Shown here in pieces: positions 9,733-47,744 of a DNA stretch of 64,000 bases. Position 1 is the stretch's first letter, and every line of letters starts with the position of its first letter. Under the pieces are notes generated by a model. It was given only the letters and a program-made list of their open reading frames with translations. It ran no database searches and was not told the DNA's origin. Source of the stretch: a virus (taxonomy: Duplodnaviria; Caudoviricetes); the IMG/VR virus record IMGVR_UViG_3300028048_000071, positions 68,933 to 132,932 of that record; one strand, 5' to 3'. A program made the position numbers and the translations under genes.

Positions 9733-10836
9733 ATGCAACTATTAAGTACATTAAATAGTCTTGATAATGTTGCTGATGGTTCTACAAGAAAGCTTCTTAA
9801 AACCGCCACTTCAAGCGGTTCTGGGAATGCAGTAACCGCAGTTAGCATATCAGGCGACACTTTAACTTATACATTAGGTTCATCGTTTTCATTGAGTAAT
9901 CATACTCACGATGCAGCCACAACGTCTGCAGCTGGTTTTTTATCAGCCGCAGACAAAAAGAAATTAGATGCAACTTCAGGTTATTATGGAACTTGTAGTA
10001 CAGCAAAAGGGACTGCCGCAAAAGTTGTTGATTGTAGTAATTATGTTTTAGCAACTGGTGCAGTTATTTATGTCAAATTTACCAACGCCAATGAGTATAA
10101 TGGTACTGCGACATTAAATGTTAATGGTACTGGAGCAAAAGATATTGCTAGAGTAGGTACAACAAAAACAACCAGATATTATTGGAGTGCAGGAGAAGTA
10201 GTCGGTTTTGTATATGATGGTACAAATTATATAATAATTGAAAGAGGAACTGCCTCAACTACTTATTATGGTGTTACAAAATTAATAACAACCGCAACAA
10301 ATACATCTGAGGCTTTGGCGTTAACTCCAAAAGCATTAAATAATTTTGCACAAAATATGATTGCTAATTATGCAGTATATTCATCTTCTTCTACCTATAA
10401 TGTAGGAGATAGAGTTAGATATAGTTATAATACATATGAATGTATAGTGGCTATTTCAACAGCAGAAGCGTGGACTGCAGCTCATTGGAAGGCTTTAGAC
10501 CCTTTACAAACACAGATAGATGAAAAATCTGAGGTTTCTATAAGTAGGAATTTAACTTCTGGAGAAAAAATAGGTACTATAACTATAGATGGAACAGCAA
10601 CTGATTTATATGCTCCTGCTACAGGTAGTGTTAATACGTCTTTGGCTAGTCCACAACAAACATATTATTTAACAGGAGTTCAAACAACTGCTGCTGGGCA
10701 AGGTAATTTATATAATAGTTATTTGTCTAGTACATATACAGGAATAAAATATGTAACTTCTACTTCTCAAGAAGGTGGAAGTTTATATGTAGACGACAGA
10801 GAAGTCGTTACAGGATTATATTATGAAATTTCATAA
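9733..10836 (+). CDS. Tail fibre protein
   Basis: ATLNVNGTGAK, YDGTNY and a CBM5/12-like YNVGDRV motif. Confidence 0.75.
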   Translation: MQLLSTLNSLDNVADGSTRKLLKTATSSGSGNAVTAVSISGDTLTYTLGSSFSLSNHTHDAATTSAAGFLSAADKKKLDATSGYYGTCSTAKGTAAKVVDCSNYVLATGAVIYVKFTNANEYNGTATLNVNGTGAKDIARVGTTKTTRYYWSAGEVVGFVYDGTNYIIIERGTASTTYYGVTKLITTATNTSEALALTPKALNNFAQNMIANYAVYSSSSTYNVGDRVRYSYNTYECIVAISTAEAWTAAHWKALDPLQTQIDEKSEVSISRNLTSGEKIGTITIDGTATDLYAPATGSVNTSLASPQQTYYLTGVQTTAAGQGNLYNSYLSSTYTGIKYVTSTSQEGGSLYVDDREVVTGLYYEIS

Positions 10837-10860: not shown

Positions 10861-13095
10861 ATGGCTACAGTTAAGTTTTATAATGATAAAGAAAAAACTC
10901 AACAAGTATATCCAGAAATTGACCCAGATGGAAATTATCCTGGTGTCACAGTTGGACTTGCCAATAACCTTGTTTCACCAGACGGTATAAATGATATAGA
11001 TACTTGGCAATATCGTTCAACTGGTGGAGAACTTGATATTACTGATGGATATGCAACATTAAAGAAACTTATTGGTACAACTGAATCTTCAACTATAGAA
11101 GAAAGTCTAACACATAACTTAATTACAACTGGTGTAACTTCTGTAACTGTTGATACAAGTACATTTAAAAGTCAAATAAGTACAAGTGGAACATATAATT
11201 TTATATATACTCCAACAATTACTTATTCATCTGCTTTAGTATATTCATTAAATAAAAGCACTTTTGCTAATTATGTAAGTCAAGCAACTGGAACATATAC
11301 ATTTACTTATACTGCTGTTGTTTCACCAGTAGATACATCTAGTGTTATACAAACTTTTACACAATCAACATTTGTTAACAAAGTAAATGAAACACCAGAT
11401 ACTTATACATTTACATATAATGGTTCAAATTGGCAATTAGATGGAACAAACGTAACAATGAGTCAATATGGTATTACAACAAAAGGAACTGAAACAAGTG
11501 GAACAACAATTACTGTTTATTATACAAGTAATTCTTGGTATTACAATAATGCCTCAATTTCTATGAGTAATTATGGTATTTCAACAACTGGCTCTGAATC
11601 TGTTGGAGACACAATTGCTATATCTTATACATCTAATGACTGGATGTTAAATAACACTGCAATAACACTTGCTGATTACGGAATTGTAATTACAGGAGGA
11701 ACTGCAGCAATTGACGATAATATTCAAATAATATTTATTGCTGAACAAGTAGGTGTAATTCAAACTGCAAATCCAACTGGATTATATAGTGTTGGAATGA
11801 ACCAATTTAATAAAGATGGTTCTCAAATATTTAGAAATTATACATTAAATTCATCTGGTGGAATAAGTGCGGCAACTGGATATTATGTAATTTATTTTAA
11901 ATGTATAGGAGGAGAAACTTATACTATTTATAATGAAACACCTTCATCTACTGTTAGAGTTGGTTATAGTGCAACTATCCCAACTACATCAAGCACTGTT
12001 ACATTATTAAGTACAGTTTCATCATCTGAATGGGCTGATGTTCTAGTTAATGACTCATATAAATCACACTATTATCCAAATAATCCTGGATATTTAGTTG
12101 TTGCGACAAGTGACATTGAAAATTTATGTTGTCATTTAACTTGGGAAGCAGTAAAGGATGATGTATATGAATCTTATTTTAATTATACATTACCTATTCC
12201 ATACACTGATAAAAATGGAGATGTAATAACAACTTATGGTTTAGTAAACTTAGATGATGGTACTCAATATTATGATGAAATAAATTTTGAAGACCTTAAA
12301 TGGTATAAGAGAACAACTAGAATTGAATATAGTGCTGAAAACTTGGCAACTGTTCAAGCATTAGGTGTTCCATATTTATATGATGCAAATTGGATTTATT
12401 ATGGTGTTAATACAGTTGAATATAACTTAGAAGACGTTTCTTATTCATATGAAATATCAAACTATGGTACTGAAGAGTTTATTAACTCTGCATTGCCATT
12501 AACTGCAACAATATTCTATCAAGAAAACTTAAGAGATAAAATAAGATTCTCTATGGAAGTTATTGATAATAAAGTTGAGAAAATTGATAGTGCTTCTACT
12601 TATACAAAATATTCAAGTGCAAAAGCATCTTATAACCTAGATAAAGCATTAAGACATATACTTGGTCTTGATGTAGATACATTCTCAACAAGCAGCACTT
12701 ATGCTGTTGGTGATTATGTTGTATACGATGGTAAATTGTGGAAATGTACCACTGCCGTAACAAGTGCAGGAGCTTGGACTGGTAATGGATTATCTGTTAG
12801 AAGTAATAATAATGGAATATTACTTGATATGGACACAACTAAATTTTTAAAATTCTTAGATTCAGATAGACCTGGAAGTCCTTGTGGAATTCCTGAACTT
12901 TATGCAAATGATGGCGGTACATACCAAATTCATTTAACATATGCAACAACATCAAACGATTATCACTTCGCTAATGCTGCTGAATTAGAAGAACAAACTG
13001 GTCTTGTAGTAAGTAGTGCAACTGGTGGAGTATCATTTAGTTATAATAGTTCTTCTGCAAATTGGGAAGAATCATATTTATTTAAAGCAAATTAA
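10861..13095 (+). CDS. Large tail/receptor-binding protein
   Basis: 744 aa, Thr/Ser/Tyr-rich internal repeats; YAVGDYVVYDGKLWKC (CBM5/12-like). Confidence 0.7.
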   Translation: MATVKFYNDKEKTQQVYPEIDPDGNYPGVTVGLANNLVSPDGINDIDTWQYRSTGGELDITDGYATLKKLIGTTESSTIEESLTHNLITTGVTSVTVDTSTFKSQISTSGTYNFIYTPTITYSSALVYSLNKSTFANYVSQATGTYTFTYTAVVSPVDTSSVIQTFTQSTFVNKVNETPDTYTFTYNGSNWQLDGTNVTMSQYGITTKGTETSGTTITVYYTSNSWYYNNASISMSNYGISTTGSESVGDTIAISYTSNDWMLNNTAITLADYGIVITGGTAAIDDNIQIIFIAEQVGVIQTANPTGLYSVGMNQFNKDGSQIFRNYTLNSSGGISAATGYYVIYFKCIGGETYTIYNETPSSTVRVGYSATIPTTSSTVTLLSTVSSSEWADVLVNDSYKSHYYPNNPGYLVVATSDIENLCCHLTWEAVKDDVYESYFNYTLPIPYTDKNGDVITTYGLVNLDDGTQYYDEINFEDLKWYKRTTRIEYSAENLATVQALGVPYLYDANWIYYGVNTVEYNLEDVSYSYEISNYGTEEFINSALPLTATIFYQENLRDKIRFSMEVIDNKVEKIDSASTYTKYSSAKASYNLDKALRHILGLDVDTFSTSSTYAVGDYVVYDGKLWKCTTAVTSAGAWTGNGLSVRSNNNGILLDMDTTKFLKFLDSDRPGSPCGIPELYANDGGTYQIHLTYATTSNDYHFANAAELEEQTGLVVSSATGGVSFSYNSSSANWEESYLFKAN

Positions 13096-13117
13096 TGAAT
13101 GAAAGGAGAATAATTTT

Positions 13118-13279
13118 ATGTTAGAAATAATTAAATCATTCTTCTCCCCTGTAGGGGGGGGCGAACAAGCTTCGCTTCACAGAATGGAAATATACAAAGG
13201 AAGGAGGATTTGCGTCAAGAGTATAGTAACTCTTCAAGCAATTCCGACTTCAATAGAAAGAGAGGTGAAGAGTATCTAA
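13118..13279 (+). CDS. Leader peptide 1 (53 aa in the present G8 state); phase-variable
   Basis: AAAGGAG SD at 13102, ATG 13118, MLEIIKSFFSPVGGGEQ...VKSI, TAA 13277; crosses the G8 tract. Confidence 0.8.
   Translation: MLEIIKSFFSPVGGGEQASLHRMEIYKGRRICVKSIVTLQAIPTSIEREVKSI
13154..13161 (+). repeat. Poly-G tract 1 (G8)
   Basis: G homopolymer in an AT-rich genome, inside the leader ORF. Confidence 0.95.
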
Positions 13280-13359
13280 AATCTTCTTATGGAAGATTTG
13301 CAGATGGAAGCAACGCTTCTGTCTTAATCTCTTCATCTTTCGCAAGTGAAAATATCGTA

Positions 13360-13368
13360 GGGGGGGGG
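13360..13368 (+). repeat. Poly-G tract 2 (G9)
   Basis: Direct reading. Confidence 0.95.
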
Positions 13369-13494
13369 CAGCTACGCTCGAATAATTATTCAGCAAGCAG
13401 TCGCTCTTATAAAGGAGGTGAAGGCAATTACGCTAGCTTAATGTCTAGTGATTTTGCCGGAACCGAGACAATGTTAAACCCTGACCGCATAGTC

Positions 13495-13503
13495 GGGGGG
13501 GGG
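13495..13503 (+). repeat. Poly-G tract 3 (G9)
   Basis: Direct reading. Confidence 0.95.
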
Positions 13504-13650
13504 CGAAATCCATTTGGATTCGTCTTCAAAGAAAGGGGGCAAGCCACTATTTAGACTTGCCTCTTATACACGAAATGATTTCTCTTTCAAGAAGGGAGGT
13601 GCAGGCTTAACAGTCTGTACTCCTTTTTATTATGAAGGAGGTGTGTGTTA

Positions 13651-14034
13651 ATGCAAATTAATAAAGACCTTATTATTAGTGGAACTAATATGACTTTAGG
13701 CGATACAGCCTATAAAGATATATATTCAACAACTGAAACCAAGACTAATAAGGTTTGGATTGATGGTCGTACTATATATAGAAAGGTTATTACTGGAAAT
13801 TTATCTCAGGCACAATGGAATCACGGAATAACTTTTGATACTATTGTTTCTATAGAAGGTGTTTTTATAAATACTAATTCTGGTAATACATTTAATATAC
13901 CTAGTACAAGACCTGATTTTCCTGATTATCAAGTTGGTGTATTTGTGAATAATACATTTATAACTTTAGAACGTGCTACTGGTGCTCAACGTGCGGATAT
14001 GAGTTTTTATGTAGTTTTAGAATATGTGAAATAA
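13651..14034 (+). CDS. Variable fibre-tip/receptor-binding cassette 1
   Basis: MQINKDL start; YSTTETKTNKVWIDGRTIYRK fibre C-terminal motif. Confidence 0.75.
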   Translation: MQINKDLIISGTNMTLGDTAYKDIYSTTETKTNKVWIDGRTIYRKVITGNLSQAQWNHGITFDTIVSIEGVFINTNSGNTFNIPSTRPDFPDYQVGVFVNNTFITLERATGAQRADMSFYVVLEYVK

Positions 14035-14063
14035 CACACACAACAGGCTAACAGCCTAACATT

Positions 14064-14471
14064 ATGGCTAAATTTACAATTAATAAAGACTTCTTTGTAG
14101 GTGATACAAATTATTCTTTAGAGGATATTCCTTTTGGAGTAGAACCCGAAGTCCCATCTAATCAAAATTATTTTAAATTTGGGAATATGATGATTTGTTG
14201 GGGTTGGAGAAACGTAACTTTAAACTGGAATGGGAATGGAGCTTATGCTGATTTTAATTTAGCAAACGATGGAACTCCATATAAAGATACTGCATATAGA
14301 ATTGTTGGGAGTTATGCTGGAAGCACAGCTTATTATGCAGGAAACTGGTGCTGGTTTGAAAGCAAAGGGACGACAAGTGCAAGAGTAAATTGCTGGTGTG
14401 AACAAGCTAATAAACCAACATCTATTATTATAGGTTTTATAGCCATTGGAAGATGGCGTGATGCTGAATAA
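14064..14471 (+). CDS. Cassette 2 (gp53-like fibre C-terminal domain)
   Basis: MAKFTINKDF start; YFKFGNMMICWG...FIAIGRW. Confidence 0.75.
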   Translation: MAKFTINKDFFVGDTNYSLEDIPFGVEPEVPSNQNYFKFGNMMICWGWRNVTLNWNGNGAYADFNLANDGTPYKDTAYRIVGSYAGSTAYYAGNWCWFESKGTTSARVNCWCEQANKPTSIIIGFIAIGRWRDAE

Positions 14472-14507
14472 AAACATTTCGTGATGAGCAAGCCTTTTGG
14501 CGAACTT

Positions 14508-14918
14508 ATGAAGATTAATAAAGATTTAATCGTAGAGGGTACAAATCATACATTAGAAGATATACCTTTTGATATTGATTTATCTGATGTGTATTCTACA
14601 AATGAAACAAAAACAAATAAGGTTTGGATAGATAACAGACCTATATATAGAAGAGTCGTTACCGGTACAGTTACCGCTGCAGGTCAAGGACAAACTGTAA
14701 CCACTATAAGTAATATAAGACAAATCTTGACTATAAGAGGAGTTATGTATTCTAATTATGGTCAATGGTGGAATATTCCTAATTATCACGGAGAAGCAGG
14801 ATATGTAAATTCCATATACTGCGATGCAAATGGAAGAGTCAATTTAGGAGTTGGGAACTTTTATAGTGCCGGTAAACCTTTTATAATTATTTTAGAGTAT
14901 ACAAAATCTACTGACTAA
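14508..14918 (+). CDS. Cassette 3 (paralogue of cassette 1)
   Basis: MKINKDL start chosen by paralogy; YSTNETKTNKVWIDNRPIYRR...LEYTK. Confidence 0.75.
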   Translation: MKINKDLIVEGTNHTLEDIPFDIDLSDVYSTNETKTNKVWIDNRPIYRRVVTGTVTAAGQGQTVTTISNIRQILTIRGVMYSNYGQWWNIPNYHGEAGYVNSIYCDANGRVNLGVGNFYSAGKPFIIILEYTKSTD

Positions 14919-14954
14919 CATTGTCTGAACGGCAAAAAAAATAATGCCGATTCT

Positions 14955-15377
14955 ATGAAAATAAACAAAGACTTAATTATTAGTGATACAAATTATACTT
15001 TAGGAGATGTTGCTGATTTTATATCAAATAAAATAGAAATTAAAGAGCTTGCTTCTACAACAGGAAGTGGCGAAAACATTACAATAGATTTGACCGATAG
15101 TTATAAAAATTATGACTTTTTATTAGTTCAATGGAGTCCATATTCTTTATATGGGAATATTGATTTTTATATTATAGATACTGCTACAATTTTATCTACA
15201 CAATATGGAAATTATCCTTATGAAACCGGACACCTTCAAACAACATCAGTATGGTCAAATGTCGTATTTGGCTTTTCATCAACAACTAGATTTATAGCTA
15301 AATGTGCAAATACAGGAACTTGGGGAAAAGGTTCTTTTAAAATAATTTCTATTAAAGGAATAAAATTACCTCACTAA
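14955..15377 (+). CDS. Cassette 4
   Basis: MKINKDL start; IDLTDSYKNYDFL...IKGIK. Confidence 0.7.
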   Translation: MKINKDLIISDTNYTLGDVADFISNKIEIKELASTTGSGENITIDLTDSYKNYDFLLVQWSPYSLYGNIDFYIIDTATILSTQYGNYPYETGHLQTTSVWSNVVFGFSSTTRFIAKCANTGTWGKGSFKIISIKGIKLPH

Positions 15378-15422
15378 TCACATAATAGAGCGACCGCTCG
15401 TAAATGAGCAAAAGCGAATTAA

Positions 15423-15800
15423 ATGATTATAAACACAGATTTAATCTACCCTATCGGTAGTATATATTTAAGCGTCAACGCAACCAATCCGTCAAAGTAT
15501 TTTGGCGGAGCTTGGGAGCAAATTACATCAGACGCATATTTAAAGATAGTAACTCAAAATGCTGGTTCTTTAGGTGGAACCAGTGTAGACCACAAGATAC
15601 CTATTGAAAGTATGCCTAGTCACGACCACGGTGTGTACGGAGCATTAACTGGAGAAAATAAACCTATTACCAATACTGGTAATGATTGGGGAGTTAATAC
15701 AACACACGGATGGACTACAAATGCCATTTCAAAGACTGGCGGTGGACAGGCTTACTATCCTTATTACTATGGCGTTTATGTTTGGAAAAGAACTGCTTAA
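15423..15800 (+). CDS. Cassette 5 (YPxGSIY...WKRTA family)
   Basis: YPIGSIYLSVNATNPS...MPSHDH...VYVWKRTA. Confidence 0.8.
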   Translation: MIINTDLIYPIGSIYLSVNATNPSKYFGGAWEQITSDAYLKIVTQNAGSLGGTSVDHKIPIESMPSHDHGVYGALTGENKPITNTGNDWGVNTTHGWTTNAISKTGGGQAYYPYYYGVYVWKRTA

Positions 15801-15843
15801 ATATACTCTCTTATGATGTTTTGAAGATTTAGATACAAATCTT

Positions 15844-16233
15844 ATGATTATAAATACAAATATGTTGTTAGCAGCCTATCCTGTAGGTTCGCTATATTTA
15901 ACAACAAATGAAATAAACCCAGGAACCTTATTTGGTGGAACCTGGGAAAAATTGACTGGGGATGCTTATCTTAAAATAGTGACAAGTAATCCTGGTCAAT
16001 ATGATGGTACGTCAGACCAACATAAAATACCTATCAATAGTATGCCTTCTCACAGACACGGTAATAGAGTTACTTTAAATATGTCTCAAGGTGCTGGTCA
16101 AGATAGAAGCCTTGTAGTTGGTGGAGGTCAAGTATGGAATACTGCGGACAATTATCAAAATCAATTTGTTGGTGGTGGACAACCTTATTATCCATATTAT
16201 TATGGTATTTATGTTTGGAGACGTACAGCATAA
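15844..16233 (+). CDS. Cassette 6 (YPxGS...WRRTA family); predicted ON in this genotype
   Basis: YPVGSLYL...MPSHRH...IYVWRRTA. Confidence 0.8.
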   Translation: MIINTNMLLAAYPVGSLYLTTNEINPGTLFGGTWEKLTGDAYLKIVTSNPGQYDGTSDQHKIPINSMPSHRHGNRVTLNMSQGAGQDRSLVVGGGQVWNTADNYQNQFVGGGQPYYPYYYGIYVWRRTA

Positions 16234-16261
16234 TCGGAATTGCTTAATGCAATAAAACTTT

Positions 16262-16435
16262 ATGAAAAATATTTTATTAAATAAAATCCTTCACATCGGG
16301 GGGGGGCAGAAATGTCTGCTCTTCACAAGAAAGGAGGGTTGGCTATTATTTTGTAACGTCAACTCTTCAAGGAATGGAGGTGGCAGACATTTAATATCTG
16401 CTATCTCTTGTGGAGGTGTAATCTTATGCAAATAA
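16262..16435 (+). CDS. Leader peptide 2 (57 aa in the present G9 state); phase-variable
   Basis: ATG 16262, MKNILLNKILHIGGGQK..., TAA 16433 overlapping the start of cassette 7; no SD of its own. Confidence 0.75.
   Translation: MKNILLNKILHIGGGQKCLLFTRKEGWLLFCNVNSSRNGGGRHLISAISCGGVILCK
16298..16306 (+). repeat. Poly-G tract 4 (G9)
   Basis: Direct reading. Confidence 0.95.
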
Positions 16436-16818
16436 ACGTAGATTTAATATATCCTATAGGTTCTTTATATTTAACAACGTCTACTGTATCACCAGCAGTT
16501 TTGTTTGGTGGTACTTGGGAACGCATTAAAGGTAGATGTATTGTAGGTGTAGACGAAAATGACACCGACTTTAATACTGTTAGTAAAACCGGCGGTGAAA
16601 AAACACATACATTGACTGTGGATGAAATGCCAGCACACAATCACAATATTCAAGGTGCGATGAATGGTGCTTCTGGAAGTAGTTGGTGTGTTGCTTTAAA
16701 TAGTGATAGAAGCGTAAACTGGTCTATCACTAATGGGTCACAAAATAAAGGTGGTGGACAAGCACATAACAATCTACAACCTTATTACACTGCTTATATA
16801 TGGCGAAGAACCGCATAA
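16426..16818 (+). CDS. Cassette 7
   Basis: GGAGG SD, MQINVDLIYPIGSLY...WRRTA. Confidence 0.8.
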   Translation: MQINVDLIYPIGSLYLTTSTVSPAVLFGGTWERIKGRCIVGVDENDTDFNTVSKTGGEKTHTLTVDEMPAHNHNIQGAMNGASGSSWCVALNSDRSVNWSITNGSQNKGGGQAHNNLQPYYTAYIWRRTA

Positions 16819-16849
16819 GATTACTTAGATATTAAATTGTCGAATAATT

Positions 16850-17227
16850 ATGAAAATAAACTTAGATTTTATATATCCTGTTGGAAGTATTTATATGAGT
16901 GTTAATGCTACAAATCCAGGAATTTTATTTGGAGGAACTTGGACTCAATTAAAAGATAGGTTCTTACTTGGTGCTGGAAATACATATTCCGCTGGAGATA
17001 CTGGTGGAGAGGCAACTCATACGTTAACTTATAATGAAATGCCTCAACATAGTCACACATTGTATAATGAAAATGCAAGTGGATGGACTTTAAGTAAAGC
17101 ATCTTTAAAAACAGGAACAAATAAAGGATATTCTGGTAATATCCAAATTGGAGATGCTGGAGGTAATCAAGCACATAATAATATGCCTCCATATCTAGTA
17201 GTCTATATGTGGAAAAGAACTGCATAA
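16850..17227 (+). CDS. Cassette 8
   Basis: MKINLDFIYPVGSIY...PPYLVVYMWKRTA. Confidence 0.8.
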   Translation: MKINLDFIYPVGSIYMSVNATNPGILFGGTWTQLKDRFLLGAGNTYSAGDTGGEATHTLTYNEMPQHSHTLYNENASGWTLSKASLKTGTNKGYSGNIQIGDAGGNQAHNNMPPYLVVYMWKRTA

Positions 17228-17273
17228 ATTATTTTGACAAAAAGAGTTGACACTAAAATAATAGTGTTATAAT

Positions 17274-17702
17274 ATGAAAATAAATGAAGATTTAATAATT
17301 AATGGAACGGATTTAAATTTAAATGATATAGTACAAAAAATATCGGCACTTGAAAAATATCAAGTAGAATATAATGCTGATTCAATTACTTTGACATTTA
17401 CAAATAAATATCCTTGTATAGCAATTACATATATGTCTCACGCAGGATGGGGATTTGGAGGAAATGAATGGATTTGGAATGCTGATTTAACTAATTCTGT
17501 TCATTTAGGTTATACTAAAGCCTATGTTAATGGTAATGACTTATTATCAAGATTTATGAGTTCTGTGTCAATTAACTATTGTCCAACTGCGGGAGTAGAA
17601 CATACAACTGTAAGAACTACAACCAAGGGTAACTCTGGTAATAGCAATGGACAATCAGTATGTGTTATTTGTTTACCATTAATAACTAATTCAAAAGAAT
17701 AA
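17274..17702 (+). CDS. Cassette 9
   Basis: MKINEDL start; unrelated C-terminal domain. Confidence 0.7.
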   Translation: MKINEDLIINGTDLNLNDIVQKISALEKYQVEYNADSITLTFTNKYPCIAITYMSHAGWGFGGNEWIWNADLTNSVHLGYTKAYVNGNDLLSRFMSSVSINYCPTAGVEHTTVRTTTKGNSGNSNGQSVCVICLPLITNSKE

Positions 17703-17723: not shown

Positions 17724-17769
17724 GAAAGGGGAATAACTTAACTAAAATTTTTGTTATTTCCTTTTTTTT
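17724..17769 (+). terminator. Intrinsic terminator closing the tail operon
   Basis: aaggggaataac...gttatttccttt followed by a T run. Confidence 0.7.
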
Positions 17770-17774
17770 ACCGC

Positions 17775-17803
17775 TTGACATTATCTTCTTTTTGTGCTAT
17801 AAT
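17775..17803 (+). promoter_or_regulatory. SigmaA-type promoter
   Basis: TTGACA-N17-TATAAT with extended TG. Confidence 0.85.
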
Positions 17804-40979: not shown

Positions 40980-41056
40980 TGGCTGCCGGGGTAAGTCTCG
41001 AACTTACAAATTCTGGTGTCAAAGACCAGTGGCTTTACCAATTTGCCTACCCGGCA
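40980..41056 (-). tRNA. tRNA-Gln(UUG)
   Basis: Cloverleaf, CTGGT-CTTTGAC-ACCAG, CCA end. Confidence 0.9.
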
Positions 41057-41070
41057 ATTTATTTTTATTT

Positions 41071-41145
41071 TGGTAGAGGAACAGGGATTTGAACCCTGAA
41101 TAATGCCGTATCAGAGCATCGTGATAACCATTTCACCATTCCTCT
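41071..41145 (-). tRNA. tRNA-Ile(GAU)
   Basis: ATGCT-CTGATAC-GGCAT, CCA end. Confidence 0.75.
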
Positions 41146-41303
41146 ATATAAAATAGGATAACATTTGTATAGTAAAGGGTCGACCAAACATTCTATACGC
41201 ACCTATAGTTTTCTAAAACTGATTATTAATCCACGTTGTGCCATTGTGGTTAGCAGTTGCTCCTACGTTTCTGCTTCACAGTTTAAACCTATATAATTCA
41301 ATT

Positions 41304-41377
41304 TGGAGTGGGTAGACGGAATCGAACCGACATTATCAGCTTGGAAGGCTGAAGTCCTACCTTTAAACGATACCCAC
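41304..41377 (-). tRNA. tRNA-Gly(UCC)
   Basis: TCAGC-CTTCCAA-GCTGA. Confidence 0.92.
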
Positions 41378-41381
41378 ATAA

Positions 41382-41457
41382 TGGTGGTCAGAGGTGGGAT
41401 TGAACCACCGACACCAAGATTTTCAGTCTTGTGCTCTACCGACTGAGCTATCCGACC
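41382..41457 (-). tRNA. tRNA-Phe(GAA)
   Basis: CAAGA-CTGAAAA-TCTTG. Confidence 0.92.
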
Positions 41458-41611
41458 ACTTTTTAAGGTATTTATTATGATAATATTTAGCTAATTTTTT
41501 ATAAAACCAATATCTTATTTTATGATTATAATACCAATGAACACTGGCTTTTCTTTCAGCATATATTTCCTTTTCTATTAAATTCATAAAACACCTTCTA
41601 ATTCTTTATTT

Positions 41612-41687
41612 TGGTACCCTGTAAGGGACTCGAACCCTTGAATGTCTGATAGAAAGTCAGATGTGTTAGCCACTTCACCAACAGGGC
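41612..41687 (-). tRNA. tRNA-Glu(UUC)
   Basis: TCTGA-CTTTCTA-TCAGA. Confidence 0.88.
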
Positions 41688-41776
41688 ATATCGGGTGTCG
41701 GGCGGATTTACAACCATAACTTAAGCTCTCTTTTGCTTTTGAAAAGACCAGTATTTTAAGGTCGACTTCTTAAAAC

Positions 41777-42316
41777 TTAATCTTTATCGCAGGTTGACCC
41801 AACATTTAGTATTTCTTTAGCACGAACATATGTATTATATGTCATTCCTATATTTGTGTCTGTTACGACAAAATTGTTCATTTGTTTTGTTAACATATCT
41901 AAATCGTCATCTATAATAACATAGTTATCTATTTCTGGATGTTGATTTAAATATTCTTCTATTTCATATCCTCTAATATTATTATAATTATATTTTCTAG
42001 GAGTTTCTCCTATTATTTCTATTTCTTTTAATAAACCACTATTATAAAGTGCTTTTTTAGTTTTTTCTAAACCACCATTTCCAAATCTCCAAGTTGATGT
42101 TATAACAATTTTTGCATTTGTTTCTTTACATAATTTATTTAGCCACATTACAGCTTGTCTATTAGAGACTTCTCCGTCATCCGGCATATTTAATTTATAA
42201 TAAAATCCATCTCGTGAAATTTGACCTCTATCTGTTTTAAAAGGTTTAGTGTCTATTATAAGAGTATTAACAACTCCATCTATATCTAAAAAGACAACTT
42301 TATTTTGATAATCCAT
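41777..42316 (-). CDS. HAD-domain protein (RNA-repair-associated type)
   Basis: VFLDIDGVVN, IVITSTWR, RGYEI..YL, YVIIDD. Confidence 0.75.
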   Translation of the reverse strand: MDYQNKVVFLDIDGVVNTLIIDTKPFKTDRGQISRDGFYYKLNMPDDGEVSNRQAVMWLNKLCKETNAKIVITSTWRFGNGGLEKTKKALYNSGLLKEIEIIGETPRKYNYNNIRGYEIEEYLNQHPEIDNYVIIDDDLDMLTKQMNNFVVTDTNIGMTYNTYVRAKEILNVGSTCDKD

Positions 42317-42515
42317 TTGATTTTTCCTCTATTCTTTTATAACCAAATTCTTTTAGCATATCAGTAAATGAAGTTTCTTTATTAGGAACCCATATTCTTG
42401 TAGTTAATTCATAGGCATAAATATTAACTAATCCTTGTTCTTCATTTTTATATGCTTCGGATAAAAGATTAATTAGAACACAAGTTGGTGTCGTTCTTAA
42501 TTCTTTTAAATTCAT
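42300..42515 (-). CDS. Hypothetical protein
   Basis: AGGGGG SD then MNLKELR; start trimmed to avoid the tRNA. Confidence 0.6.
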   Translation of the reverse strand: MNLKELRTTPTCVLINLLSEAYKNEEQGLVNIYAYELTTRIWVPNKETSFTDMLKEFGYKRIEEKSNGLSK

Positions 42516-42541
42516 ATTTATCCCCCTTTTTATTATTTTAA

Positions 42542-42618
42542 TGGTAGCTCCAATTGGACTCGAACCAATGACCTTTCGGGTATGAACCGAATGCACTAGC
42601 CAACTGTGCTATGGAGCT
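42542..42618 (-). tRNA. tRNA(CAU), elongator Met or Ile2
   Basis: TTCGG-TTCATAC-CCGAA. Confidence 0.85.
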
Positions 42619-42674
42619 ATATTGGTGCTCGTGAGAGGACTTGAACCTCCACGGAGTTACCTCCAACGGATTTT

Positions 42675-43270
42675 CTTACCACATTATGTCGCCATAACCA
42701 TATACTAATATATGTTGTAGTCTGGACTATCCCTTAACCATAGATTAAATCCTTAGGTTGCCACCGTCTAGTCTCTACACCTTCCTAATTTTATTAGGCT
42801 TGGCTCGGGATTGTCTCAATGAGAGTTTCCCCGAATTTGATGACATTCAGTCAGAAAGTTTCCTATTCTGCTGCTCTTTTTGACCAAATATTCCGGAACA
42901 ATGTTTAGAGCAGAACCATTTATCTGGATTTTTATTTTTTGAGCGATAATGATTTGCTCTTCTTCTACTATCAACAATGATTTCTTTTTTGCATATATAG
43001 CAATGTTCTATTGTTGAAACCTTTTTAAAATGTTCTTTTCTATGAACAGTTTTATCTTTAACTTCTAAATTTTCAATTACATCATTAGTTTTATTGTGGT
43101 CTTTATGGTGTACTTCTTCTCTATCAGTTAATTCTCTACCTAAATATTGTTCCATTAAATATCTAGCATAAGATTTAGAATGATATTTATTATCAGAACC
43201 TTTATAAACAATAAATCGTCTACCATCTTTTTGTTTATAAATATTCATCATATCACCCTCATTCTTTTTA
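42675..43270 (-). mobile_element. Group I intron in the tRNA-Leu anticodon
   Basis: P AAATTCGGGGAAAC, Q AATCCCGAGC, R GTAGAGACTA, S AAGGGATAGTCC; ends in G; follows U34. Confidence 0.9.
42847..43251 (-). CDS. Intron-encoded HNH homing endonuclease
   Basis: GAGGGTG SD; LMEQYLGREL..EEVHHKDHNKTND.IENL; CxxC...FCSxxC. Confidence 0.85.
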   Translation of the reverse strand: MMNIYKQKDGRRFIVYKGSDNKYHSKSYARYLMEQYLGRELTDREEVHHKDHNKTNDVIENLEVKDKTVHRKEHFKKVSTIEHCYICKKEIIVDSRRRANHYRSKNKNPDKWFCSKHCSGIFGQKEQQNRKLSD

Positions 43271-43326
43271 AAGTCCGTTGCGTCTACCGATTCCGCCACA
43301 CGAGCATATAAGGAAGGCATAAAGCC

Positions 43327-45330
43327 TTAACTTAATAAATCTATTAATGTTTCTTTTGTAATAGCACTTGTTGATAAATCTATGTCTGCTGAAACTTCTT
43401 TTTCTTCTTGAGAAACTTCATTTCCTTCTTCGTCAATAGTTACTATTAATTTTTTATAAGTAGGTTCATTTATTATTTTAGCTCCAGAATCTTTTAGTAA
43501 ATCATTTAATTTTAATTGAACTTTACTATAAGCTTGTAAATAATCAAATGCTCCAAGTGTTATATCATCTTGTCTTGATGTTCTTACACTAGCTCCAGCA
43601 CTAAAATCATTGAAATAAAATTTAATTGTTTCTCCTATAGAAATGAATCCTACAACCATTTGTCTTTCTGACTTTTTAATTACCATATCTATTTTTTCTA
43701 ATATATTATTTGGGTTGATAACATAATTTTTTCTTATGTCAGTTCCATCGCCTTTTGCTATAACAAATTCAAATGGAACATCTTGAGAATTACCTGTAAA
43801 CATATTCAATGTTATTAAGAAAGCACCATATCCATAATTTTTATCAACATAGAATAATTCAGTTGCTCCATTTGGATTTGGGGCATCGGTTACATCACCA
43901 CTAAATAAGATATTTCCTGATTTACTTCTATAAGAAGCATCCCAACCAAATATTTCTGACTTATTCATTTGTTTTAAATCTAAGTCTACTCTTTCTTCTG
44001 AACCTCTTCTTGGCATTTCTCCATAATAAGAACTTTCTTGATTAACACCATTTAAAATATTAGTCCAATGAACACCATAAACTAAATCTTCTCCTCTTGG
44101 AATTTCTAAATAAGAACCTTCTGGAATATTGCCATTAAATTGTTTTTCGCTTGTTGGTGCTGCATATGTTATATTATCTGGTATATAAATTATTTTGTCT
44201 TTAACCTTTAGAGATATTCTATTTCTTAAATGATTATAAATAATTTTATATAAATATTCTAATCTTTCAGTATATTTTGTTTTAGGGTCATTTAACTTTT
44301 TAACATAGCTTTTACCATTTCTTATTTTATAAACAATATTTTCAGTTCCTTTTAGTCTATATAAAATACCATTTATTATTCTTATTTCTCTGAAAATAGT
44401 TATATTATTCAACTCTTCTTGTAATGAAGTTAAATTAATATCTACATTTTCATCAGTTAAACAATCTAATATATTCTTTTTTAATGGTTTATGATTTTTA
44501 ATAGCAAGTTTTCTTAACTTATTAATTATAGTGTTAATTTCCTTATTATCATCTTTATTTTTAAATGCGAGAAATAAATTTTTATTTCTTAAGAATATTG
44601 AAGATAATTTTGAATAACCGTTAGGAGTATTATCTATATAAGATTTTAACATTTTAAATGCCATTTTTTTATCACAATCTTTTATGGAGTTTATAGTATT
44701 ATCATCTTGTATTTTTAATGTATTTCCAGTAGCTTTAAATATTAAAAATCTTAAAAATTCTTCTGGGTTTCTTGGCATAATATTATATTTATCATATAAT
44801 GCTGTTTTTATTTCTCTATTAGATATTTCATCAAATCTATCTTTATCAATATAATCAGATAAAACCATAATATCTTTTATTGTTTGTTCTGATAATGCAA
44901 TACCACTTGTTAATAATACCATTAACTTTTCTGTTAATTCATTTTCAGTTATTGGTTTGATTGTAATAAATTCAACGCCACTATCTTTATCAAGTCCTGG
45001 TATTTCTAGCTTTTCATTAGGTATATAAACTAAATCTGAATCATAAAGTCCTAAACTTTCAAATCCATAAGTTGTAATATAATGAATAATTTGTTGTGCA
45101 ATTAAATCTTCAATAGGGGCATTTTTTACAATTTCAAAATCTTTATGAAATGTTTCATTCCATTTTTTGCCATCTTTACCATATTGTTTAATTGCTTCAT
45201 CAACTATCTCTTTATCGGCGGTATCTGGAATTAATAATCCATATTTTAAACCATCTTCCCATAAAGATTCTGATTTTTCTCCTAAATAACTCTTAAATAA
45301 TCTTAAAACCTCTTTCTTCATCTCTCTCAT
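43327..45330 (-). CDS. Large helical protein with TerD-like C-terminus (candidate Ro/TROVE-like RNA scaffold)
   Basis: HYITTYG, VDLDL, WDASYR, FSGDVTDAP.PNGATE; directly downstream of the Y-RNA-like array. Confidence 0.55.
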   Translation of the reverse strand: MREMKKEVLRLFKSYLGEKSESLWEDGLKYGLLIPDTADKEIVDEAIKQYGKDGKKWNETFHKDFEIVKNAPIEDLIAQQIIHYITTYGFESLGLYDSDLVYIPNEKLEIPGLDKDSGVEFITIKPITENELTEKLMVLLTSGIALSEQTIKDIMVLSDYIDKDRFDEISNREIKTALYDKYNIMPRNPEEFLRFLIFKATGNTLKIQDDNTINSIKDCDKKMAFKMLKSYIDNTPNGYSKLSSIFLRNKNLFLAFKNKDDNKEINTIINKLRKLAIKNHKPLKKNILDCLTDENVDINLTSLQEELNNITIFREIRIINGILYRLKGTENIVYKIRNGKSYVKKLNDPKTKYTERLEYLYKIIYNHLRNRISLKVKDKIIYIPDNITYAAPTSEKQFNGNIPEGSYLEIPRGEDLVYGVHWTNILNGVNQESSYYGEMPRRGSEERVDLDLKQMNKSEIFGWDASYRSKSGNILFSGDVTDAPNPNGATELFYVDKNYGYGAFLITLNMFTGNSQDVPFEFVIAKGDGTDIRKNYVINPNNILEKIDMVIKKSERQMVVGFISIGETIKFYFNDFSAGASVRTSRQDDITLGAFDYLQAYSKVQLKLNDLLKDSGAKIINEPTYKKLIVTIDEEGNEVSQEEKEVSADIDLSTSAITKETLIDLLS

Positions 45331-45355
45331 CTCTCCTTATTTTCATATATATTAA

Positions 45356-45903
45356 TAGGCGAAAAGTAATAAAATACTGTTGCTCTACCAATTGAGCTAC
45401 TCCCCAATATAAATAATAAATTGGCTGGGGAGGTAGGACTTGAACCTACAACACACAGTTCCCTGGCTTTTAAAAGGAACTTTTTATGCCTAATAATAAC
45501 TTTTTAAATTGGCGAGAAGTATTTTCGGTGCTCAGCCACTGAGCTACATACCCCATTATGGGATATGGTGGGAATCGAACCCACGTCCACCGGGTTAACA
45601 GCCCTGTAATAAAGGAACTTCTTTTGCCAATATTTTTCTTATATAATAGGCGAGGACTAATTGGCTGGAATTGAACCAGCAAAACCATTTCTTTCTTCTG
45701 TTAATAAGAGGAAGCCCTTATGCCTTTATAATTAATGTTTAAGGCGGGAAGTAAAACTCCTAAATCCCTGCATTAGTGCGAAAACCGCAAATAAAGGAAC
45801 TTTCTATGCCTTATAAATTTTAAAGGCGGAAGGTAATCTTTTTTCATTTATCAGTATGGAACGGGTCTCTCCCCGTAGTCTTTAAGGAACCTTCTATGTC
45901 TTT
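45356..45903 (-). ncRNA. Five tandem Y-RNA (YrlA)-like units
   Basis: Shared closing bulged stem; two units enclose circularly permuted tRNA halves. Confidence 0.65.
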
Positions 45904-45913
45904 TATTTTTATT

Positions 45914-45992
45914 TGGTTGCGGTGGGTTGGATTTGAACCAACGACCTCTTGGTTATGAGCCAAGCGAGCTAACCAGACTGCTCCACCCCGCT
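45914..45992 (-). tRNA. tRNA-Met(CAU), initiator-like
   Basis: GCGGGGTGGAGCAG...CTTGG-CTCATAA-CCAAG; unpaired 1:72. Confidence 0.85.
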
Positions 45993-46026
45993 ATATAGGA
46001 AGGGGACATCCCCTTCAATTTATGGT

Positions 46027-46998: not shown

Positions 46999-47036
46999 AT
47001 CTTATCCTTTCACCACAACTATAAAATAATAAAATC

Positions 47037-47112
47037 TGGCATCCCCTCTAGGATTTGAACCTAGGACACTCGCCTTAGAAGGGCGATGCTCTATCCACTG
47101 AGCTAAGGGGAT
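47037..47112 (-). tRNA. tRNA-Arg(UCU)
   Basis: TCGCC-CTTCTAA-GGCGA. Confidence 0.92.
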
Positions 47113-47118
47113 ATATAA

Positions 47119-47203: not shown

Positions 47204-47311
47204 ATATTAAGCCCATAACACCATTGCGAGCGGTCTTATGGGATGGACTTACACATAGGCTTATTAGATACCATATCTCGCTCTACTCTCTCTAATCGTT
47301 TCTATGATGCC

Positions 47312-47738: not shown

Positions 47739-47744
47739 AAATAA

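What the first reader, a model, noticed from the sequence alone, without database searches (positions are those of the whole stretch)
13100..17702. Poly-G-programmed translational 1-of-9 selector for receptor-binding cassettes, with no recombinase
Seen in sequence: leader ORF 1 (SD 13102, ATG 13118) can cross three G tracts and leader ORF 2 (ATG 16262) crosses one. Translating every tract length mod 3 gives ten stops, each matched to one target. Tract 1: G8 (present) stops at TAA 13277 -> cassette 6; G7 stops at TAG 13224 -> leader 2; G9 reads on. Tract 2: G10 stops at TAA 13383 -> cassette 5; G8 stops at TAA 13439 -> cassette 4; G9 reads on. Tract 3: G9 stops at TAG 13552 -> cassette 3; G10 stops at TAA 13608 -> cassette 2; G8 stops at TAA 13649, a TAATG overlap with cassette 1. 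Tract 4: G10 stops at TAA 16354 -> cassette 9; G8 stops at TAA 16392 -> cassette 8; G9 stops at TAA 16433, overlapping the cassette 7 start. The tree has 1+2+3+3 = 9 leaves for exactly 9 cassettes. Distant targets are assigned by complementarity at or next to each stop (next finding). Established: G homopolymers slip at high rates, and translational coupling by termination-reinitiation is known. Inference: tract lengths set where the leader ribosome stops, and it reinitiates on the start that long-range pairing holds there, so each genotype makes one tail-tip variant for host-range switching. I know of no described system that combines these parts; invertases/shufflons and DGRs solve the same problem at the DNA level.
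Basis: partly seen in the sequence, partly recalled or inferred. Interest (0 to 1): 0.98.

Follow-up and report, generated by a model that had tools for sequence, protein, structure and literature searches.

The report
Repeat-programmed translational selector of phage adhesins
A large uncultured gut phage places slippery DNA repeats inside a small leader gene so that repeat length decides at which of ten stop codons ribosomes halt; each stop is tied by long-distance RNA pairing to the start of one of nine alternative receptor-binding tail proteins, which looks like a multiple-choice host-recognition switch that works in translation and that I could not find described in any paper.

Summary
The four G8-G9 tracts are the only G/C runs of 7 or more in the 133-kb genome. 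The ten frame-specific stops are exactly as listed.

New evidence:
- 22 of 23 leader stops in three lineages have a strong Shine-Dalgarno (SD) within 26 nt upstream. The distal cassette starts have none.
- Every assigned stop lies inside, or at most 15 nt before, a segment complementary to the spacer ahead of one cassette. These pairings are strictly nested.
- Relatives down to 55% fibre identity have the same architecture with unrelated helix sequences, 5, 7 or 9 cassettes, and (CAAT)n or (AC)n repeats in place of poly-G.
- The number of stops equals the number of targets in six of eight architectures. The other two look like recent deletions or recombinants.
- Tract lengths differ between near-identical genomes. 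In one pair, one G is the only indel in 20.4 kb.

Best reading (about 0.6): repeat length sets the leader frame, and the terminating ribosome is handed across the adjacent long-range helix to one SD-less start. Strict 1-of-9 exclusivity and the hand-off itself are inferred.

I found no published description. Earlier AI notes of this scan describe simpler one-tract versions on other DNA (e1-5217641, e1-5682215, e1-5343774).

The parts
10861..13095 (+). Tail-fibre / baseplate protein gene (744 aa) immediately upstream; presumed carrier of the cassette proteins
   Evidence: Pfam CBM_5_12 at residues 608-640. It is conserved at 55-92% in all related loci, always followed by the leader. The C-terminal ESYLF motif is invariant.
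13102..13651 (+). Leader 1: SD 13102-13109, ATG 13118, three poly-G tracts and seven SD-plus-stop modules. As recorded (G8) the ORF ends at TAA 13277.
   Evidence: GC is 41-47% against 30% for the genome. The read-through peptide is poorly conserved (31% over 107 aa) while the fibre is 75% identical, and it has no Pfam match.
13154..13161 (+). Poly-G tract 1 (G8)
   Evidence: The same flanks carry G9 in L001, L008 and L020, G11 in L010 and G7 in L026. L021 also has G8, in diverged flanks.
13360..13368 (+). Poly-G tract 2 (G9)
13495..13503 (+). Poly-G tract 3 (G9)
   Evidence: G8 in L008 with identical flanks. At the homologous position, in flanks that are partly diverged, L001 has G11, L026 G6 and L024 a decayed G5.
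13224..13226 (+). Stop for tract 1 G7/G10; assigned to leader 2. 5' arm 13236-13247 pairs with 16234-16245 (12 bp perfect).
   Evidence: SD energy -12.3 kcal/mol upstream. In L021 the same arm addresses a cassette instead of a second leader.
13277..13279 (+). Stop for tract 1 G8 (the state in this record); assigned to cassette 6. Arm 13272-13285 pairs with 15821-15836; inner arm 13349-13365 pairs with 15806-15822.
13383..13385 (+). Stop for tract 2 G10; assigned to cassette 5. Arm 13396-13407 pairs with 15387-15398. The poly-G itself is the only SD-like element upstream.
13439..13441 (+). Stop for tract 2 G8; assigned to cassette 4. Arms 13452-13459 and 13466-13476 pair with 14930-14937 and 14916-14926.
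   Evidence: The arm and its address are co-inherited in the chimeric leader of L024.
13552..13554 (+). Stop for tract 3 G9; assigned to cassette 3. Arm 13556-13577 pairs with 14475-14495.
13608..13610 (+). Stop for tract 3 G10; assigned to cassette 2. Arm 13598-13619 pairs with 14043-14063.
   Evidence: This is the weakest helix, because both arms are also local hairpins.
13649..13651 (+). Stop for tract 3 G8; TAATG overlap with the cassette 1 start. Region 13641-13655 is masked by pairing with cassette 1's own 3' end (14025-14041).
   Evidence: Pair probabilities are about 1 in a 490-nt fold.
13651..14034 (+). Cassette 1 (127 aa), own SD
   Evidence: 29 homologues of 96-140 aa; the Atlas cluster has 825 members, mostly viral.
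14064..14471 (+). Cassette 2 (135 aa), no SD
14508..14918 (+). Cassette 3 (136 aa), no SD
14955..15377 (+). Cassette 4 (140 aa), no SD
15423..15800 (+). Cassette 5 (125 aa), Gp10_C receptor-binding head domain, no SD
   Evidence: Pfam PF21939 E 2e-14. PHROG matches fall at or near the C-terminal ends of the tail-protein profiles.
15844..16233 (+). Cassette 6 (129 aa), Gp10_C, no SD; the predicted ON cassette of this record
16262..16435 (+). Leader 2 (SD-less ATG 16262, poly-G tract 4 at 16298-16306, stops 16354, 16392 and 16433): a second-tier selector that is itself an output of leader 1
16426..16818 (+). Cassette 7 (130 aa), Gp10_C, own SD. Start region 16418-16429 is masked by its own 3' end (16813-16824, 12 bp perfect).
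16850..17227 (+). Cassette 8 (125 aa), Gp10_C, no SD. The address 16826-16841 pairs with 16386-16399 around stop 16392.
17274..17702 (+). Cassette 9 (142 aa), no SD. The address 17244-17264 pairs with 16343-16365 around stop 16354.
17724..17770 (+). Intrinsic terminator closing the array. No convincing terminator lies between cassettes.

Best explanation
This is a translational multiplexer for receptor-binding proteins, written into one late mRNA.

Shown from the sequences:
- Slippage-prone repeats (poly-G here; CAAT/ATCA or AC repeats in relatives) lie inside a small, well-initiated leader ORF.
- Each repeat length modulo 3 sends the ribosome either to one of two frame-specific stops or on to the next repeat. 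This gives a ternary tree with 7+3 stops.
- Nearly every stop is preceded by a strong orphan SD.
- Every stop sits inside, or at most 15 nt upstream of, a segment complementary to the spacer just ahead of one cassette start.
- Those distal starts have no SD.
- The pairings are nested, so each cassette is looped out and SD(k)+stop(k) face AUG(k) across the base of helix k.

Inferred:
- A ribosome that terminates at stop(k) has melted the outer helices but stands against the intact inner part of helix k.
- It is held by SD(k), and its small subunit (or the 70S ribosome) is handed across the helix base to AUG(k). This would be termination-reinitiation over a distance made short by RNA structure, formally like the short-ORF-dependent shunt of plant pararetroviruses.
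- The two proximal cassettes (1 and 7) are coupled in the ordinary way, by stop/start overlap with a start masked by the cassette's own 3' end.
- One stop addresses a second leader, giving a two-tier relay.
- DNA slippage at the repeats therefore re-aims progeny phages to another of nine small receptor-binding proteins. These presumably dock on the 744-aa fibre protein.
- The recorded genotype, G8/9/9/9, would express cassette 6.
For: 1. Repeats. They are the only 4 G/C runs of 7 or more in 133 kb, where 0.045 runs of 8 or more are expected. Their lengths differ between otherwise near-identical genomes. L023 and L024 differ by 3 substitutions plus one G in tract 1 over 20.4 kb. The L002, L003 and L004 third tracts are G8, G10 and G9. 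The window-type tract 1 is found as G7, G8, G9 and G11. Relatives use (CAAT)8, (ATCA)13 and (AC)9 at the same place.

2. Tree. The stops are exactly as predicted. The read-on frames are open against shuffles, with joint P of about 5e-4.

3. Split ribosome-binding sites. 22 of 23 stops in three lineages have an SD of -7.2 kcal/mol or stronger, mostly -10.6 or stronger. Only 2.5% of random positions reach -8. The 16 distal starts (cassettes and second leaders) score -3.0 or weaker, like random sequence, whereas ordinary long ORFs have a median of -7.7.

4. Helices.
- L004 has perfect Watson-Crick runs of 14, 14, 11+10, 13+7, 10+8 and 11 bp, one per spacer, in exact reverse order.
- L011 has runs of 10+11, 12+8, 10 and 15 bp.
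- Window helices are -15 to -25 kcal/mol.
- The combined P for longest runs is 7e-15 with a conservative null.
- The order is monotonic in each lineage (1/720 each).
- All 18 assigned stops are inside or at most 15 nt before their arm.
- Helix sequences are unrelated between lineages, so it is the pairing that is conserved.
- A mini-mRNA fold recovers the nested helices.

5. Count rule. It holds for the window, L001, L021, L004, L024 and L011.

6. Natural swaps. The chimeric L024 leader carries the window-type module together with its matching spacer address. L004 and L007 keep the leader (98-99%) and the spacers plus N-termini (76-90%) while the cassette bodies are unalignable.

7. Cassettes 5-8 are Gp10_C head domains that elsewhere form the C-terminal tips of tail fibres.
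Against: - There are no expression data of any kind. The hand-off across a helix has no bacterial precedent that I could find.
- Within the window alone, several spacers pair about as well elsewhere in 8 kb as with their assigned arm. The cassette 2 helix competes with local hairpins.
- Exclusivity is doubtful. Cassettes 1 and 7 have strong SDs of their own. TAATG at 13439 offers a restart into the read-on frame. L026 cassette 6 has acquired its own SD. RNA polymerase slippage on G8-G9 could mix frames within one cell.
- L026 has three leader-2 stops but one cassette. L027 has five stops and four cassettes, and only two of them have matching arms.
- SD-to-stop spacings (6-18 nt) and helix-to-AUG spacings (0-24 nt) are not uniform.
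- Attachment of the cassette proteins to the fibre is untested.
Confidence: 0.6

Rival explanations
1. Same architecture, but coupling works by RNA unfolding (MS2 type) and not by ribosome hand-off. The leader ribosome melts every helix it traverses, freeing those spacers. Repeat length then sets how far the leader is read, and so sets a cumulative or graded set of cassettes instead of one.
For: Unfolding is one of the two accepted models of coupling (PMC12548453). The starts of cassettes 1 and 7 are plainly masked by helices. Half of the stops lie inside their arm, so part of that helix is melted at termination.
Against: The 3' arms do not cover the distal AUGs, and those starts have no SD to unmask. 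In about half of the pairs the ribosome stops 7-15 nt before the arm and would not open it. The model needs neither an SD before each stop nor a one-to-one count of stops and cassettes, yet both are conserved.
Confidence: 0.15
2. Split ribosome-binding sites with constitutive initiation. Each helix simply brings an orphan SD next to an SD-less AUG (as hairpins do in T4 genes 38 and 25), so all cassettes are made de novo. Leader translation acts negatively, switching off those cassettes whose helices it disrupts.
For: Orphan SDs lie 5' of the arms and AUGs lie 3' of the partner arms. Bridging of SD and AUG by a hairpin is known in T4 (my own knowledge, not checked here).
Against: It gives no role to a stop placed at each helix. 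It also gives none to open read-on frames or to the equality of stops and targets. SD(k) lies within the translated leader path that ends at stop(k), and so would be occluded just when helix k is spared.
Confidence: 0.1
3. The repeats act mainly through slippage by RNA polymerase (or the ribosome) and not through heritable DNA length changes. Every infection then yields a fixed mixture of several cassette proteins, and virions carry mixed tips. On this reading the locus is a ratio-setting device, not a switch.
For: Homopolymer runs of 8-9 are in the range where transcriptional slippage is documented (PMC5009743 and PMC5574713 were listed but not read in detail). The same leader logic would distribute ribosomes among stops.
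Against: DNA length variation between near-identical genomes is directly seen. Tetranucleotide and dinucleotide repeats in relatives are classical DNA-slippage repeats and poor substrates for transcriptional slippage.
Confidence: 0.1
4. DNA rearrangement. The inverted repeats between leader and spacers are recombination sites of a shufflon- or invertase-like system that moves cassettes to an expression site.
For: The genome encodes one tyrosine recombinase. Shufflons and Gin/Cin systems solve the same biological problem.
Against: Inversion between an arm and its partner would not join the leader to the cassette. Each repeat pair has its own sequence with no common core. The recombinase is 76 kb away, and there is no serine invertase or reverse transcriptase. 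Order and orientation of the cassettes are the same in every related contig examined.
Confidence: 0.02
5. The leader is an ordinary phase-variable protein-coding gene (for example a fibre chaperone), and the stops, SDs and complementarities are incidental.
For: In L001 and L004 the leader is an uninterrupted 185- or 148-codon ORF.
Against: The peptide is 31% identical where the neighbouring fibre is 75% identical. The similarity comes from translated poly-G and SD motifs. There is no Pfam family. The statistics exclude chance.
Confidence: 0.02

Closest known systems
Contingency loci: simple-sequence-repeat phase variation, including hypermutable poly-G tracts in receptor-binding genes of Campylobacter Fletchervirus phages (Sorensen et al. 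2021, Cell Rep 35:109214, seen as a reference in PMC10877375), contingency loci of T2/T4 (bioRxiv 10.1101/2025.10.21.683753) and (CAAT)n in Haemophilus lic1 (my own knowledge)
   Same: Slippage-prone repeats whose length modulo 3 changes the reading frame. Stochastic, reversible and heritable. Used by phages to vary host recognition. The repeat units are the same (poly-G, CAAT).
   Different: In those systems the repeat lies inside the regulated gene and turns that one gene on or off. Here the repeats lie in a separate leader ORF, are arranged in series as a decision tree, and choose among many intact downstream genes.
Streptococcus gallolyticus pil1 switch: GCAGA repeats in a leader peptide gene combined with attenuation (Danne et al. 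2014, PMC3894217)
   Same: Repeat length changes how far a leader ORF is translated, and the reach of the ribosome controls downstream genes through RNA structure.
   Different: pil1 has one output, and it acts on a transcription terminator. Here there are 5-9 alternative outputs, no terminators between leader and cassettes, kilobase-range helices and SD-less targets.
Translational coupling by termination-reinitiation (PMC6728339, PMC10666635; review PMC12548453)
   Same: An SD inside the upstream ORF, stop next to start, and the downstream gene dependent on upstream translation. Cassettes 1 and 7 are textbook cases (TAATG, ATG...TAA overlap).
   Different: Published coupling needs overlap or very short linear distance. 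Here the partner start is 0.4-3 kb away, and is close only in the folded RNA.
Short-ORF-dependent ribosome shunt of plant pararetroviruses (CaMV, RTBV; PMC2241666, PMC5902531)
   Same: A short ORF ends just in front of a stable stem. The ribosome bypasses the stem and restarts just beyond its 3' base.
   Different: That system is eukaryotic and scanning-based, with one stem and one landing site and no frame choice. No bacterial or phage example is known to me.
Long-range RNA control of translation in RNA phage MS2 (coat-replicase 'Min Jou' interaction; my own knowledge), and hairpin-bridged SD-AUG in T4 genes 38/25 (my own knowledge)
   Same: Distant complementary segments decide whether a start site is used. 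A structure can shorten the effective SD-AUG distance.
   Different: Those are single fixed interactions, not a bank of addressable helices selected by reading frame.
DNA-level tail-fibre diversification: Mu Gin / P1 Cin invertases, R64 shufflon, Bordetella phage DGR (my own knowledge)
   Same: Same biological purpose: a phage population that hedges between receptor specificities, using alternative C-terminal or tip modules.
   Different: Those need a recombinase or reverse transcriptase and rearrange or rewrite DNA. Here the only DNA change is plus or minus one repeat unit, and the choice is executed by the ribosome.

Membership tests
SSR contingency locus (phase variation) | A simple-sequence repeat far longer than composition predicts, located in a translated region | tested here: met
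   4 tracts of G8-G9 where 0.045 runs of 8 or more are expected, all inside leader ORFs
SSR contingency locus (phase variation) | Repeat length polymorphic between otherwise near-identical genomes | tested here: met
   L023 vs L024: the only indel in 20.4 kb is one G. L002, L003 and L004 have G8, G10 and G9. Tract 1 is found as G7, G8, G9 and G11.
SSR contingency locus (phase variation) | Length change alters expression of a phenotype-determining gene | not testable with these tools
   Needs proteomics or reporters.
Translational coupling by termination-reinitiation | Stop of the upstream ORF overlaps or lies within a few nt of the downstream start | tested here: not met
   Met only for cassettes 1 and 7 (TAATG at 13649; ATG 16426 / TAA 16433). 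For the other eight targets the linear distance is 0.4-3 kb, and they are close only across a predicted helix.
Translational coupling by termination-reinitiation | SD within the end of the upstream ORF | tested here: met
   22 of 23 stops have an SD of -7.2 kcal/mol or stronger within 26 nt upstream
Translational coupling by termination-reinitiation | Downstream translation depends on upstream translation | not testable with these tools
   Inferred from the SD-less starts
Leader-peptide SSR attenuation (pil1 type) | SSR inside a leader peptide ORF | tested here: met
Leader-peptide SSR attenuation (pil1 type) | An intrinsic terminator downstream of the leader that the ribosome destabilises | tested here: not met
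   There are no terminators between the leader and the cassettes or between cassettes. The only terminator-like hairpin is inside the leader (13598-13621), and relatives do not share it.
Invertase / shufflon | A site-specific recombinase encoded at the locus, and inverted repeats with a common core | tested here: not met
   No PF00239 match; the only PF00589 gene is 76 km... 76 kb away; each arm pair has a unique sequence; no inverted variants were found among relatives
Diversity-generating retroelement | Reverse transcriptase plus a template/variable repeat pair | tested here: not met
   No RVT_1 match in the complete genome. The direct repeats found are only the conserved cassette 5' ends.
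Phage receptor-binding head domain (Gp10_C, PF21939) | Significant match to the family profile | tested here: met
   Cassettes 5-8 score E 7e-11 to 2e-29, above the cut-off. Cassettes 1-4 and 9 have no family, with only weak leads to Gp53-like_C and a jelly-roll domain.

The most novel reading that the evidence does not exclude
Bacterial ribosomes that finish a short leader ORF can be passed across the base of a kilobase-spanning mRNA helix to an SD-less start codon. Phages have built on this a heritable, repeat-programmed 1-of-N address decoder: a ternary decision tree with a second-tier relay. It selects which receptor-binding protein is made, without any recombinase.
Probability: 0.5. Interest if true: 0.95.

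Novelty: categorically new. Interest (0 to 1): 0.9.

Why it matters
If the mechanism holds, it adds a third way for viruses to vary host recognition, next to DNA inversion and diversity-generating retroelements. The only genetic change would be plus or minus one repeat unit, and the ribosome would do the selecting.

It would also be the first bacterial case of reinitiation over a distance bridged by RNA structure. That bears directly on the unresolved debate between the unfolding and scanning models of translational coupling. It would also offer a compact natural design for multi-output genetic switches.

Practically:
- Gene callers break such leaders into meaningless small ORFs.
- The cassettes are annotated as hypothetical proteins.
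- The host range of such phages cannot be read from a single assembled genome, because one repeat unit changes the predicted adhesin.

The architecture is modular. Leader arm, spacer address and cassette move together between phages. The locus is therefore also a clean natural system for studying how regulatory RNA pairings co-evolve.

Tried and rejected
- Rfam scan of 12-19 kb: nothing near threshold.
- The gapless inverted-repeat finder was swamped by AT-rich chance pairs.
- An energy scan of each spacer against 8 kb of the window gave the assigned arm as top hit only for cassettes 4, 5, 9 and leader 2. The window alone does not prove the pairing; the relatives do.
- GenBank phages: no close relative of the locus. 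The replication protein is only 40% identical to uncultured human-faecal phages, so no host could be named.
- Formal base-pair covariation within the window-type group is not informative, because the arm cores are invariant there.
- PDB sequence search with the cassette 1 family: no match.
- PHROGs: no family for the fibre or for cassettes 1-4 and 9.
- Structure prediction was not accepting jobs.
- Complex prediction was unreachable in four tries, so docking of cassette proteins on the fibre C-terminus was never tested.
- DNA inversion, DGR, pil1-type attenuation and 'ordinary phase-variable protein gene' were considered and rejected, for the reasons given under rivals and membership.
- Literature searches with seven term sets found no description of the system.

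Full report
**What is in the window**

The window comes from a complete 132,932-bp virus genome with 30% G+C. A 744-aa tail-fibre-like gene (10861-13095, CBM_5_12 domain) is followed by a 550-nt stretch of raised G+C (41-47%). Then come six small ORFs, a second 170-nt leader, three more small ORFs, an intrinsic terminator (17724-17770) and a perfect sigma-70-type promoter for the next genes (17775-17803).

The four poly-G tracts are G8 at 13154, G9 at 13360, G9 at 13495 and G9 at 16298. They are the only G or C runs of 7 or more in the whole genome. Composition predicts 0.045 runs of 8 or more.

**Check of the observation**

- From ATG 13118: stops at 13224 (G7/G10) and 13277 (G8). With G9, stops at 13383 (G10) and 13439 (G8). 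With G9/G9, stops at 13552, 13608 and 13649.
- From ATG 16262: stops at 16354, 16392 and 16433.

The frames that must stay open between tracts are open. Shuffles of the same segments give an open frame with P 0.021, 0.22 and 0.11.

The cassettes start at 13651, 14064, 14508, 14955, 15423, 15844, 16426, 16850 and 17274. All begin M-x-I-N-x-D-L/F-I. Cassettes 5-8 are Gp10_C receptor-binding head domains, which elsewhere form the C-terminal tips of tail fibres. Cassette 1 belongs to a cluster of about 825 free-standing viral proteins of about 127 aa.

**Split ribosome-binding sites**

I scored pairing to the anti-SD sequence.
- Leader 1, cassette 1 and cassette 7 have strong SDs (-9 to -13 kcal/mol).
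- Cassettes 2-6, 8, 9 and leader 2 score +2 to -2.5, like random positions (median -1.4).
- Long ORFs of the window have a median of -7.7.
- All ten leader stops have an SD-like element of -9.4 or stronger within 26 nt upstream. For 13383 that element is the poly-G itself.
- Over three lineages, 22 of 23 stops reach -7.2 or stronger. Only 2.5% of random positions reach -8.

**Long-range pairing**

In the window the assigned arms form helices of -15 to -25 kcal/mol. The best are 12 perfect pairs for leader 2 (13236-47 with 16234-45) and 12 for cassette 7's start with its own end.

Scored against 8 kb of background, only some spacers have their assigned arm as best partner. The window alone is therefore suggestive, not decisive.

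The order of the arms is exactly the reverse of the order of the spacers, so the pairings are nested and free of pseudoknots. A fold of leader plus spacers recovers four of the helices and an inner arm for cassette 6. The helix masking the cassette 1 start has pair probability of about 1.

**Relatives**

The fibre protein and cassette 1 led to about twenty contigs. These give three main lineages, plus leaders that mix their modules (L024).
- L004 (75% fibre identity) has three tracts, seven stops and seven cassettes. Its spacers match its leader with perfect runs of 14, 14, 11+10, 13+7, 10+8 and 11 bp, one each, in reverse order. The sequences are unrelated to the window's helices.
- L011 (55% identity) has a (CAAT)8 repeat in leader 1 and G9 in leader 2. 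It has three stops in each leader, five cassettes plus a relay, and helices of 10+11, 12+8, 10 and 15 bp.
- L021 (window type, no second leader) has seven stops and seven cassettes. The arm that addresses leader 2 in the window addresses a cassette there.
- L024 has a chimeric leader with two active tracts and a third decayed to G5. It has five stops and five cassettes. The imported window-type module came together with its matching spacer.
- L027 uses (ATCA)13 and (AC)9.

Across the window, L004 and L011, all 18 assigned stops lie inside or at most 15 nt before their arm. Longest-run statistics across the window, L001, L004 and L011 combine to P of about 7e-15 with a conservative null.

Three different repeat chemistries at the same position can only share one property, which is that they shift the frame.

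**Exceptions**

L026 keeps three stops in leader 2 but has one cassette. That cassette has a cassette-7-type start fused to a cassette-9-like body, as if by deletion between the conserved cassette 5' ends.

L027 has five stops and four cassettes, and only two of them have matching arms. The other two carry window-type addresses without a partner.

These look like recent rearrangements or assembly chimeras. They show that the rule is not absolute.

**Hypervariability and modularity**

L023 and L024 differ over 20.4 kb by three substitutions and one G in tract 1. The leaders of L003, L004 and L007 differ by 5-15 substitutions (97-99% identical) and carry G10, G9 and G8 in tract 3; L002 also has G8 there.

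L004 and L007 share the leader (98-99%) and the spacers plus cassette N-termini (76-90%), but their cassette bodies are unalignable. The regulatory slots are kept while the receptor-binding bodies are exchanged.

The read-through leader peptide is only 31% identical between lineages and has no Pfam family. Its similarity comes from translated poly-G and SD motifs. The leader is therefore a nucleic-acid device, not a protein gene.

**Mechanism**

- Shown: repeat length fixes the stop. Every stop lies at a helix whose other strand is followed by one start, nearly all have an orphan SD, and the distal starts lack an SD.
- Excluded by geometry: DNA inversion, because inverted repeats would not join the leader to the cassette.
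- Excluded by search: an invertase or reverse transcriptase in the genome. One tyrosine recombinase lies 76 kb away.
- Inferred: the terminating ribosome, held by the orphan SD and standing against the intact helix, is transferred to the AUG at the other side of the helix base.

The closest formal analogue is the short-ORF-dependent shunt of plant pararetroviruses (PMC2241666, PMC5902531). The closest bacterial processes are termination-reinitiation, which is otherwise limited to very short distances (PMC6728339, PMC10666635, PMC12548453), and the pil1 leader-repeat switch (PMC3894217).

Rivals are unfolding-type cumulative coupling, constitutive split-RBS initiation with negative control by the leader, and transcriptional slippage setting ratios. 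In about half the cases the ribosome would stop before opening the assigned helix, and SD, stop and helix always occur together. Both facts favour hand-off over unfolding.

**Predicted states**

| Locus | Tract state | Predicted ON cassette |
|---|---|---|
| Window | G8/9/9/9 | 6 |
| L021 | 8/9/9 | 6 |
| L001 | 9/9/11 | 1 |
| L004 | 9/8/9 | 1 |
| L008 | 9/9/8 | 1 |
| L002, L007, L009 | 9/8/8 | 2 |
| L003 | 9/8/10 | 3 |
| L023 | G10 | 5 |
| L024 | G9/G7 | 2 |
| L011 | (CAAT)8 | 2 |

**Novelty**

Seven full-text searches, and a 2025 review of translational coupling, gave no description of such a system.

Earlier AI notes of this scan report simpler versions on other DNA. One is a single tract choosing among three adhesins by long-range pairing (e1-5217641). 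Others are on/off leader switches (e1-5682215, e1-5343774). Those notes are leads, not support.

The present locus is the most elaborate case, with serial tracts, ten stops, a relay and nine outputs. Because expression was never measured, the mechanism stays an inference, and I put it at about 0.6.

Noticed in passing
L011 12537-14923 (same contig as L012): The five cassettes of this relative carry 9 in-frame TGA codons at tryptophan positions against 3 TGG. The adjacent 761-aa fibre gene has 0 TGA and 13 TGG. The cassettes are therefore read with TGA=Trp (code 4 type), or were imported from such a background. The leader stops there are all TAA or TAG.
   Followed up: partly
window 13439-13443: The stop assigned to cassette 4 is a TAATG. 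Its ATG (13441) re-enters the read-on frame and runs through tract 3 to TAG 13552. It is conserved in L001, L008, L020, L021, L024 and L026. L004 has a similar TAATG at 12987. This is a possible built-in leak that would give two outputs.
   Followed up: partly
window 13217-13234; L008, L021, L026 homologous sites: The stop 13224 sits in the loop of a local hairpin (AAGAGT/ACTCTT). In L008, L021 and L026 the stem is CAAGG/CCTTG, so the hairpin is kept by compensatory change. Several other stops also lie in local hairpin loops. Their role is unknown.
   Followed up: partly
window 13598-13630: A terminator-like hairpin (10 pairs, stop 13608 in its loop) followed by a U-rich run lies inside leader 1. 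Relatives do not share it.
   Followed up: no
window 17234-17275: The spacer before cassette 9 contains TTGACA-17-AATAAT and TTGACA-17-TAATAT promoter-like matches that overlap the 3' arm and end at the ATG. This could be chance or an alternative transcript start.
   Followed up: no
window 40980-49676, minus strand: A cluster of 19 tRNA genes, plus an ARAGORN 'tmRNA' call of 424 nt at 48271-48694.
   Followed up: no
L004 13100-15700 vs L007: Cassette bodies are completely different between two phages whose leaders are 98-99% identical. The spacers and the first ~30 codons of the cassettes are conserved. This implies frequent cassette exchange by recombination at the conserved 5' ends.
   Followed up: partly
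L026 9423 and 10036-10446: Cassette 6 of this relative has acquired its own SD (GGGAGGTG). The single cassette after leader 2 joins a cassette-7-type start to a cassette-9-like body, which leaves two orphan stops.
   Followed up: partly
genome G000:C1:5676-6206, minus strand (outside the window): The only recombinase of the genome is a tyrosine recombinase of 368 aa, 76 kb from the locus. It may mean the phage is temperate.
   Followed up: no
L021 13072-13326; L022 6738-8228: In these relatives the array is followed by an HTH_3 repressor-like gene on the opposite strand. L022 also has an IS1595-family transposase. The gene content downstream of the array differs from the window.
   Followed up: no
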